Shown in pieces: positions 1 to 800 of a stretch of DNA of 800 nucleotides. A model generated the notes under the pieces. It searched no databases, was not told the origin of the DNA, and saw only the letters and a list, made by a program, of their open reading frames with translations. The translations under genes were made by a program, and so were the position numbers. The stretch lies in assembly GCF_003334255.1 (NCBI RefSeq), contig NZ_QOWU01000185.1; one strand, written 5' to 3'. Positions within the stretch are counted from its first letter, which is position 1. Each line of letters starts with the position of its first letter. This stretch comes from Escherichia coli (lineage in GTDB: Bacteria > Pseudomonadota > Gammaproteobacteria > Enterobacterales > Enterobacteriaceae).

Positions 1-800
1 CAGGTCTCGCCCAGCGTGGTGTTCACAAAGGTTTTCAGGCCGTTGGGATCTTTCAGTGCATCCAGCCAGTCATAGACTATCTGTACCCAGGTGGTGAACG
101 GACTGTACGCTGTCCAGATATGGAACGTGATGGAGCGCGGCGGCGGAATTTCATTATCCGCGGCGCTGAAAAACGTCAGACCGTCACGGGTCCACATCCC
201 CGTGTTTTCACAGATCCACCGCCCGTTGCTCTGGTCAAGCTCAGACTGATGGATCACGCAGCCATGATGTTCACAGAGGTAGAAAACGCTTTCGGGGCTG
301 TCCTTCTCCCATTTAAGGCCAAAAGGCGTGGATTCATCGCCAAATTTCAGATACTGCTCCTCCCCACAGTGTGGGCAGGGCACATAAAAACGCATGAAAT
401 GCGCCGACTCGTTGGCCGCTTTTTCGATCTGGCAGGTGCCTTTGATTTTAGGCGTCGAGCCGCGAATGGATTTGGGCCATACAGAGCCCTCAATACGTTT
501 ATCCCCAAGCAGGGTTGGCGAACCCTCTTTTTCGACATCCGGTTCGAACGAGGAAAGTTCGTCATAGCAGACCACGTCCACGGATTTTTCACGGTAGTTT
601 TTGGCGGCAGCGCCGCCCAGGCACCAGAAACCCACACCCGATGAAAAGCGTTTCAGCGTGAGGGTATTGTCACGATGTTTACGCCCCAGCCATGGAAAAA
701 GGTCTTTCAGACATGGCACATCCCGAATCGTCGCCTCCACGTGAGACTTCATAAAATCTTCAGCGGCAGAATCCGTGGGCTGAAAAAGCAGACTGTTTCG
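1..800 (-). CDS. terL: Phage terminase large subunit, lambda gpA-like (internal fragment, partial at both ends; roughly residues 99-365 of a ~640-aa protein)
   Basis: Reverse-complement frame starting at window position 800 is open for 266 codons plus 2 trailing bases, with no stop. The translation contains FMKSHVEATIRD, KHRDNTLTLKRF, GFWCLGG, AKNYREKSVDVVCYDEL, EGSPTLLGDKRIEGSVWPKSIRGSTPK, GTCQIE, HFMRFYVPCPHCGEEQYLKFGD, TPFGLKW, SVFYLCEH, TFHIWTAYSPFTTWVQIV and KTFVNTTLGETW, all of which match blocks of lambda gpA as I recall it, in the same order and spacing. Recognition is from memory of the lambda gpA sequence, not a database search. Confidence 0.95.

What the first reader, a model, noticed from the sequence alone, without database searches (positions are those of the whole stretch)
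1..800. Gene orientation predicts where the informative neighbours lie
Because terL runs from position 800 toward position 1, the N-terminal ~98 codons (including the Walker A motif and the small-subunit interaction region), the terS/Nu1-like gene and the cos or pac packaging site should lie to the right of position 800. The C-terminal nuclease domain, then head-tail connector and portal genes in the lambda order (A, W, B), should lie to the left of position 1. Any cargo or accessory genes would be outside this window.
Basis: inference. Interest (0 to 1): 0.3.

Follow-up and report, generated by a model that had tools for sequence, protein, structure and literature searches.

The report
Lambda-type prophage terminase gene, neighbours as predicted

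Summary
The minus strand is open across all 800 bases. It encodes residues 99-364 of a 642-aa lambda gpA-type large terminase (Pfam GpA_ATPase 1.6e-40; 94% aa identity to phage 21 gp2, 72% to lambda gpA). The window is 100% identical to many E. coli chromosomes.

I sampled ten such records. In nine, the flanks read cosQ-cosN-cosB-terS-terL-W-portal-protease-decoration-capsid. Exactly 98 terL codons lie right of position 800, including the Walker A motif KSARVGYT at residues 76-83 and the divergent TerS-binding N-terminus. Also to the right are a 169-aa Nu1-like terS and the cosN 12-mer GGGCGGCGACCT, about 960 nt beyond position 800. W and portal lie within about 2.6 kb left of position 1.

Two caveats:
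- One of the ten records, and 13 of 5,426 genomes overall, carries a 2,460-bp deletion starting 39 nt left of the window. It fuses TerL 1-378 to the portal C-terminus and removes the nuclease domain, W and portal. The window's own source genome is unknown, so this allele cannot be excluded.
- Pfam's nuclease model already begins inside the window, although the published structure-based lambda map places the nuclease domain outside it.

Side note: the neighbouring terS and cosB differ from those of lambda, 21 and N15.

The parts
1..800 (-). Internal segment of the large terminase gene (terL, lambda gene A / phage 21 gene 2 homologue). It covers codons 99-364 of 642, plus the first 2 nt of codon 365. 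Both ends of the gene lie outside the window.
   Evidence: Open frame. Pfam GpA_ATPase and GpA_nuclease. PHROG_15. Annotated terL in records with a 100% match. Codon offset. Substitution pattern by codon position.
216..794 (-). Stretch matching Pfam GpA_ATPase (PF05876), protein residues 101-293. This is the C-terminal three-quarters of the packaging ATPase model.
   Evidence: In the full-length protein the model matches residues 48-293.
558..575 (-). Walker B-type motif VVCYDE, residues 174-179. Lambda has VAGYDE at the same numbering. The assignment of D178/E179 as Walker B rests on lambda literature recalled from memory and cited only by title in PMC10810279 ref 67.
   Evidence: Motif position. 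1:1 residue numbering with lambda.
138..380 (-). Equivalent of the lambda TerL insertion at residues 239-319, a mainly beta-structured insert in the ATPase domain. It holds a four-cysteine cluster, CPHC (residues 240-243, nt 366-377) and CEHHGC (residues 274-279, nt 258-275). A zinc-binding role is my inference and was not tested.
   Evidence: Insertion boundaries from PMC10810279. Motif positions and gap-free mapping to lambda.
3..128 (-). Residues 323-364, where the Pfam GpA_nuclease (PF20454) model begins to match. By the structure-based lambda map this stretch is still the end of the ATPase domain.

Best explanation
The window is an internal piece of the large terminase gene of a lambda/phage-21-like cos prophage that is widespread in E. 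coli. It is transcribed from position 800 towards position 1.

The protein is the motor and nuclease subunit of the DNA-packaging enzyme:
- Its N-terminal ~50 residues bind the small subunit TerS.
- Residues ~29-366 form the ATPase that translocates DNA. The window covers residues 99-364 of this domain, including the Walker B motif and the lambda-specific cysteine-bearing insertion.
- Residues ~373-623 form the nuclease that nicks cosN.
- The extreme C-terminus tethers the enzyme to the portal.

Because the late operon is collinear and translationally coupled, the neighbours follow from the orientation. In window-equivalent coordinates, to the right lie the terL start (~1094), terS (~1066-1575), cosB, cosN (~1759-1770) and cosQ (~1794-1800). 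To the left lie the terL stop (~-834), W (~-818 to -1024) and portal (~-1021 to -2613), followed by the rest of the head and tail genes.

Shown here: gene identity, frame, the neighbours in identical records, and the cos sequence. Inferred from the lambda and 21 literature: the biochemical roles of each domain and site.
For: - Coding frame: the open frame is under purifying selection.
- Family matches: Pfam GpA_ATPase and GpA_nuclease and the PHROG terL family.
- Identity to characterised proteins over the window: 94% aa to phage 21 gp2 and 72% to lambda gpA, with no gaps.
- Occurrence: 100% nucleotide matches in many E. coli chromosomes. 1,924 of 5,426 genomes hold a homologue and 323 records are at least 99% identical.
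- Neighbours: nine of ten sampled identical records show terS-terL-W-portal-S49 protease-D-E... on the same strand, with overlaps of 29, 17 and 4 nt, identical to phage 21.
- Collinearity: 1,861 records cover at least 80% of the 4.6-kb cos-to-portal block, against 1,919 that cover the window.
- cos site: cosQ GGGTCCT and cosN GGGCGGCGACCT are present, and the 60 bp to their left are 100% identical to the annotated phage 21 right end.
- Function: PhiR12 phages, deposited as phage genomes with E. coli K-12 MG1655 or E. coli C given as host, carry this module at 96% nucleotide identity (99.4% TerS). This suggests the module can still package DNA.
- Domain map: PMC9026076 and PMC10810279. Deviant Walker A in lambda: PMC9410871.
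Against: - The source genome of the window is not known. One of ten sampled identical records (13 genomes in all) lacks the terL nuclease domain, W and portal because of a deletion that starts 39 nt left of the window.
- Some ~97%-identical relatives have a frameshifted terL or a terS split by ISEc8. These prophages do decay, so the gene need not be functional in every host.
- No activity was measured, and no solved structure of this family was found by sequence search.
Confidence: 0.93

Rival explanations
1. The window comes from the deletion allele. In that allele terL is truncated 39 nt to the left of position 1 and fused in frame to the last 37 codons of the portal gene. The nuclease domain, W and portal are absent, and the next gene to the left is the S49 head protease. 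The rightward predictions (terS, cos) would still hold. The leftward ones would fail.
For: - L010 (strain FDAARGOS_448) matches the window at 100% and carries the deletion.
- The fusion protein is TerL 1-378 plus portal 494-530, 415 aa in total.
- The junction is present in 13 complete genomes.
Against: - Only 13 genomes carry the junction, against about 1,900 that carry the two halves ~2.5 kb apart.
- About 323 records are at least 99% identical to the window, which gives a prior of roughly 4%.
- Nine of the ten sampled identical records are intact.
Confidence: 0.05
2. The plus-strand ORF at 120-644 (174 aa, the longest complete ORF listed) is a real antisense gene, and the terL reading is secondary.
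For: Plus frame 3 has only one stop in the window and holds a 174-aa ATG ORF.
Against: - This is the codon-aligned antisense frame of terL, where stops can arise only from the sense codons TTA, CTA and TCA, so long ORFs are expected there.
- The terL wobble positions, which carry 65 of the 86 differences from phage 21, are the first codon positions of this ORF. The ORF is therefore not conserved as a protein.
- It has no NCBIfam match.
- Its product is arginine-rich and of low complexity.
- No record annotates it.
Confidence: 0.01

Closest known systems
Phage 21 gene 2 product (large terminase), OL657228.1 / M81255.1
   Same: Both proteins are 642 aa. Identity is 94% aa (250/266) and 89.4% nt over the window, and about 97% aa from residue 61 to the end. 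The gene order cos-1-2-W-portal-C... and the overlaps of 29, 17 and 4 nt are identical. cosQ, cosN and the 60 bp to their left are identical.
   Different: The first ~50 residues of TerL are only about 50% identical. [quoted passage not shown] The packaging specificity is therefore probably not that of phage 21.
Phage lambda gpA (TerL-lambda)
   Same: Same Pfam families. Residue numbering aligns 1:1 without gaps through residue 377. KSARVGY(S/T) lies at 76-83, the Walker B hhhYDE motif at 174-179 and CPHC at 240-243. The order Nu1-A-W-B-C-Nu3-D-E is the same. The cosN 12-mer is the same.
   Different: Identity is 72% aa over the window and 65.5% overall. Nucleotide identity is too low for a megablast hit to lambda proper. 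The TerS DNA-binding domain and the cosB R sites differ.
Escherichia phages PhiR12_1/2/2_star/4/5 (PV340549-PV340554)
   Same: These are the closest deposited phage genomes: 96% nt over the window, 98.6% TerL aa and 99.4% TerS aa. The Nu1-A-W-B order is the same, and cosN lies the same distance upstream of terS.
   Different: There are 32 nucleotide differences in the window. I found no paper on these phages.
Phage N15 / Monarch packaging module (Feiss et al., PMC4669245)
   Same: A lambda-like cos phage group with a TerS specificity distinct from lambda and 21. The Monarch cosB is three-part with an IHF site, as appears to be the case here.
   Different: N15 TerS aligns only to residues 59-164 of this TerS (42.7%). 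It does not align to the N-terminal recognition domain.

Membership tests
Lambda gpA-type large terminase (Pfam PF05876 + PF20454) | GpA_ATPase domain | tested here: met
   The window translation matches at E 1.6e-40. The full-length protein from identical records matches over residues 48-293 at E 7.3e-56.
Lambda gpA-type large terminase (Pfam PF05876 + PF20454) | GpA endonuclease domain C-terminal to the ATPase | tested here: met
   The full-length protein matches over residues 323-601 at E 1.2e-71. Only the first ~45 model positions fall in the window. The domain is absent in the 13-genome deletion allele.
Lambda gpA-type large terminase (Pfam PF05876 + PF20454) | [quoted passage not shown] | tested here: met
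   KSARVGYT lies at residues 76-83, outside the window to the right. VVCYDE lies at residues 174-179, inside the window. Both have the same numbering as lambda. The deviant Walker A of lambda is described in PMC9410871.
Lambda gpA-type large terminase (Pfam PF05876 + PF20454) | ATP-driven DNA translocation and cosN nicking activity | not testable with these tools
   This needs biochemistry. The only indirect support is that PhiR12 phage genomes carrying a 96%-identical module are deposited with E. coli laboratory strains as host.
Lambda-like cos packaging and head module (cos-Nu1-A-W-B-C-Nu3-D-E) | Nu1-like terS immediately upstream of terL and overlapping it | tested here: met
   A 169-aa terS overlaps terL by 29 nt. 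It matches Pfam Phage_Nu1 over residues 49-150 at E 1.4e-18. The N-terminal domain is not matched by the Pfam model.
Lambda-like cos packaging and head module (cos-Nu1-A-W-B-C-Nu3-D-E) | cos site (cosQ, 12-nt cosN, cosB with R sites and an IHF site) upstream of terS | tested here: met
   cosQ GGGTCCT lies 30 nt before cosN. cosN GGGCGGCGACCT lies 195 nt before terS. Repeats CATGTCCGGTT / AACCGGACATG / AAGCCGGACATG lie at +50, +108 and +137, matching the annotated phage 21 R3 and R2 positions (50-65, 107-122) and lying near R1 (150-166). IHF binding was not tested; an A/T-rich stretch lies between the R3-like and R2-like repeats.
Lambda-like cos packaging and head module (cos-Nu1-A-W-B-C-Nu3-D-E) | W and portal (B) directly downstream of terL, followed by the protease/scaffold, decoration and capsid genes | tested here: met
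   Met in nine of ten sampled identical records. Not met in L010, the deletion allele.
Phage 21 packaging specificity (gp1 / cosB-21) | TerS recognition domain and cosB R sequences of phage 21 | tested here: not met
   The 21-type TerS aligns only over residues 64-166, at 39.8%. cosB identity falls to chance level beyond +40.

The most novel reading that the evidence does not exclude
There are two candidates, and both lie outside the window.

(a) The terS and cosB next to this terL may define a lambda-like packaging specificity distinct from the characterised lambda, 21 and N15/Monarch classes. The TerS has a different winged-helix recognition region (VATQTEVARHLSLTDRQLRRLQK...). The cosB repeats have the core CATGTCCGG. 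The TerL N-terminal ~50 residues vary with the terS type. The module is present in about 21% of complete E. coli genomes and, as far as my searches went, has not been studied experimentally.

(b) Much less likely: the in-frame TerL(1-378)::portal(494-530) fusion found in 13 genomes could be retained as a nuclease-less, TerS-binding ATPase that interferes with packaging by related phages.

The probability and interest scores given refer to (a).
Probability: 0.35. Interest if true: 0.25.

Novelty: already known. Interest (0 to 1): 0.07.

Why it matters
It matters little beyond correct annotation. The result shows that a reader working from sequence alone can recognise an 800-bp internal fragment of a lambda-type terL and correctly predict the direction and distance of terS, cos, W and portal.

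Two practical points follow:
- Prophage packaging modules decay. A deletion, frameshifts and an IS insertion were all seen in close relatives, so neighbour predictions should be checked against the real flanks.
- NCBI's name "terminase gpA endonuclease subunit" for the 415-aa deletion product is misleading, because that protein lacks the endonuclease domain.

Tried and rejected
- PDB sequence search with the full-length TerL found nothing at E <= 0.01. This agrees with PMC9410871, which states that the lambda gpA structure is unknown.
- NCBIfam gave no hit for the window protein, the antisense ORF or terS. Pfam and PHROGs were sufficient.
- The Rfam scan of the window found only a sub-threshold DicF match (20.2 bits against a gathering score of 48, E 0.09), which I treat as chance.
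- The antisense 174-aa ORF was considered and rejected (see rival explanations).
- I could not retrieve a paper giving the lambda Walker A and Walker B residue numbers (K76, D178/E179). PMC7416571 and PMC4461450 are not held, and other papers do not give the numbers. These assignments rest on motif identity with lambda plus PMC9410871 and my own recollection.
- I found no paper on the PhiR12 phages.
- I did not test whether the 13 genomes carrying the deletion are clonal.

Full report
**What is in the window**

Reading the 800 bases in all six frames shows a single frame with no stop codon, minus strand frame 1, with 266 codons. The other five frames have 1, 9, 9, 10 and 18 stops. The translation matches Pfam GpA_ATPase (window residues 3-195, E 1.6e-40) and the beginning of GpA_nuclease (residues 225-266, E 2.5e-9). 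It also matches PHROG_15, "terminase large subunit" (E 6e-153).

Differences from relatives concentrate on the third codon position of this frame. That accounts for 65 of 86 differences from phage 21 and 28 of 32 from PhiR12_1. Synonymous codon changes outnumber non-synonymous ones 59:16 and 27:4. The observation that terL runs from position 800 towards position 1 is therefore confirmed and is far beyond chance.

The only other long ORF is at 120-644 on the plus strand (174 aa). It lies in the codon-aligned antisense frame, where long open stretches are expected. Its first codon positions are the terL wobble positions, so it is not conserved as a protein. It has no family match. I reject it. 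No Rfam family reaches threshold.

**Where the sequence occurs**

The window matches many complete E. coli chromosomes at 100% identity. In total 1,924 of 5,426 genomes hold a homologue, and 323 records are at least 99% identical. The nearest deposited phages are the PhiR12 series (96%), followed by phage 21 and 21-like "lambda" isolates (89.4%). Lambda proper is too divergent at the DNA level for megablast. At the protein level it is 72% identical over the window, with no gaps and 1:1 residue numbering. Phage 21 gp2 is 94% identical over the window.

**Testing the predicted neighbours**

I fetched annotated flanks from ten chromosomes that contain the window at 100% identity. I also fetched flanks from phage 21, PhiR12_1 and lambda.

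In nine of the ten chromosomes the same-strand order is terS (169 aa), terL (642 aa), a 68-codon W-like head-tail joining gene, a 530-aa portal, an S49 protease (C), a decoration protein (D) and the major capsid protein (E). In the two long loci this continues with FI, FII, Z, U, V, G, T, H, M and L. The overlaps terS/terL, terL/W and W/portal are 29, 17 and 4 nt, identical to phage 21.

terL starts 294 nt upstream of the window, so the window begins at codon 99.

In window-equivalent coordinates:
- terL start: ~1094
- terS: ~1066-1575
- terL stop: ~-834
- W: ~-818 to -1024
- portal: ~-1021 to -2613

At the population level, 1,861 records cover at least 80% of a 4.6-kb cos-to-portal query, against 1,919 that cover the window. 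About 97% of carriers are therefore collinear.

**The cos site**

The lambda/21 cohesive-end 12-mer GGGCGGCGACCT lies 195 nt upstream of the terS start in every one of these loci. For comparison, lambda nu1 starts at nucleotide 191 and phage 21 gene 1 at nucleotide 189. The 60 bp to the left of cosN, including the annotated cosQ heptamer GGGTCCT, are 100% identical to the phage 21 right end. The first 40 bp to the right are 38/40 identical.

Beyond +40 the cosB region diverges completely from phage 21, but it keeps the same three-part layout:
- CATGTCCGGTT at +50
- its perfect inverted copy AACCGGACATG at +108
- AAGCCGGACATG / CATGACCGGTTT at +137 to +156
- an A/T-rich stretch between the first two

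The phage 21 R3, R2 and R1 sites are annotated at 50-65, 107-122 and 150-166. A cos site, not a pac site, therefore lies about 960-1,000 nt to the right of position 800.

**Domain claims**

Walker A. The full-length protein has KSARVGYT at residues 76-83, identical in numbering to lambda's KSARVGYS. This is outside the window on the right, as predicted. [quoted passage not shown] The specific K76 assignment is from my memory of the Feiss and Rao literature, which I could not retrieve.

Small-subunit interaction region. PMC9026076 describes TerL-lambda as an N-terminal TerS-binding domain, then the motor ATPase, then a C-terminal endonuclease, a coiled coil and a portal tether. In support, TerL residues 1-60 are only 30/60 identical to phage 21 gp2, while residues 61-642 are about 97% identical. 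The switch coincides with a different terS. Some relatives, such as O104:H4 2009EL-2050, match only from terL nucleotide 83 onward and carry a 549-nt terS, the same length as phage 21 gene 1.

Nuclease domain. PMC10810279 gives the lambda ATPase domain as residues 29-366, with an insertion at 239-319, and the nuclease domain as 373-623. Pfam's GpA_nuclease model, however, already aligns from residue 323. By Pfam's boundaries, about 42 nuclease-family residues are inside the window.

Other features inside the window. It holds the Walker B-type VVCYDE (residues 174-179, nt 558-575). It also holds a CPHC...CEHHGC cysteine cluster inside the lambda-specific insertion. A zinc-binding role for that cluster is my inference.

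**The exception**

A clean 2,460-bp deletion begins 39 nt to the left of window position 1. It fuses TerL residues 1-378 in frame to portal residues 494-530, giving a 415-aa protein. The nuclease domain, W and portal are removed, and the S49 protease gene follows directly.

The junction occurs in 13 of 5,426 genomes, all identical at the junction. About 1,900 genomes carry the two halves separately. Against the 323 near-identical records, this gives a prior of roughly 4% that the window comes from this allele.

RefSeq names the product "terminase gpA endonuclease subunit", although it lacks the endonuclease domain. No microhomology is evident at the endpoints.

Other decay was seen in ~97%-identical relatives. 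In strain 1613, terS is split by ISEc8 and terL has a 1-nt insertion at nucleotide 261. In O104:H4 2009EL-2050, terL is frameshifted.

**Side observation on the neighbouring terS**

Its Pfam Phage_Nu1 match covers only residues 49-150. In the phage collection only the five PhiR12 records match at 99% or more. Lambda, N15 and 21-type TerS align only over the C-terminal two-thirds (40-47%). The only full-length matches are about 32-35%, to Aeromonas phages. Together with the distinct cosB repeats, this suggests a packaging specificity different from the characterised lambda, 21 and N15/Monarch classes (PMC4669245).

The module is common: at least 80% of cosB+terS is present in 1,148 of 5,426 genomes. 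This is outside the window and is only an inference from sequence.

**Verdict**

The finding is a correct, textbook inference about a well-known gene family in a well-known gene order. Novelty: already known. Interest: low.

Noticed in passing
L010 4339/4340 (window-equivalent -39 to -2498); compare L008 4340-6799: A 2,460-bp in-frame deletion fuses TerL 1-378 to portal 494-530, giving a 415-aa protein. It removes the nuclease domain, W and most of portal. It occurs in 13 of 5,426 complete E. coli genomes, all identical at the junction. RefSeq names the product 'terminase gpA endonuclease subunit' although the endonuclease domain is gone.
   Followed up: yes
L001 11226-11735 (terS) and 11043-11225 (cosB); window-equivalent ~1066-1758: The TerS is Nu1-like only in residues ~49-169. 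Its N-terminal DNA-binding region matches no characterised lambda, 21 or N15 TerS. cosB carries repeats with the core CATGTCCGG at +50, +108 (inverted) and +137, close to the phage 21 R3/R2/R1 positions. This may be a distinct packaging specificity. The module is present in 1,148 of 5,426 genomes and in the PhiR12 phages.
   Followed up: partly
L001 11707-11890 (terL codons 1-60): The TerL N-terminal ~50 residues are only about 50% identical to phage 21 gp2, while the rest is about 97% identical. The mosaic joint coincides with the switch of terS type, which fits the known TerS-binding specificity domain of gpA.
   Followed up: partly
L004 1753-6609 (strain 1613); L005 2419-4348 (O104:H4 2009EL-2050): In ~97%-identical relatives the packaging module is decaying. 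In strain 1613, terS is split by an ISEc8 (IS66-family) insertion and terL has a 1-nt insertion at nucleotide 261. In the O104:H4 strain, terL has a 1-nt insertion near nucleotide 1510.
   Followed up: partly
L001 3759-4094, 366-521 and 9941-10267; L015 1-169: Accessory genes lie upstream of cos in the prophage: anti-adapter IraM (opposite strand), hokD toxin, and a TonB C-terminal-domain protein between the lysis cassette and cos. The TonB-like gene is also annotated in phage 21 (CPT_21_73).
   Followed up: no
L001 4355-6317 and 7216-7551: In the ATCC 25922 prophage a DUF6645 gene is frameshifted and a YdfR-family gene is truncated. This prophage copy may therefore not be fully intact, even though its packaging and head genes are.
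   Followed up: no
window 589-618 (+): A weak sub-threshold Rfam match to DicF (20.2 bits against a gathering score of 48, E 0.09). I judge it a chance match inside the coding sequence.
   Followed up: yes
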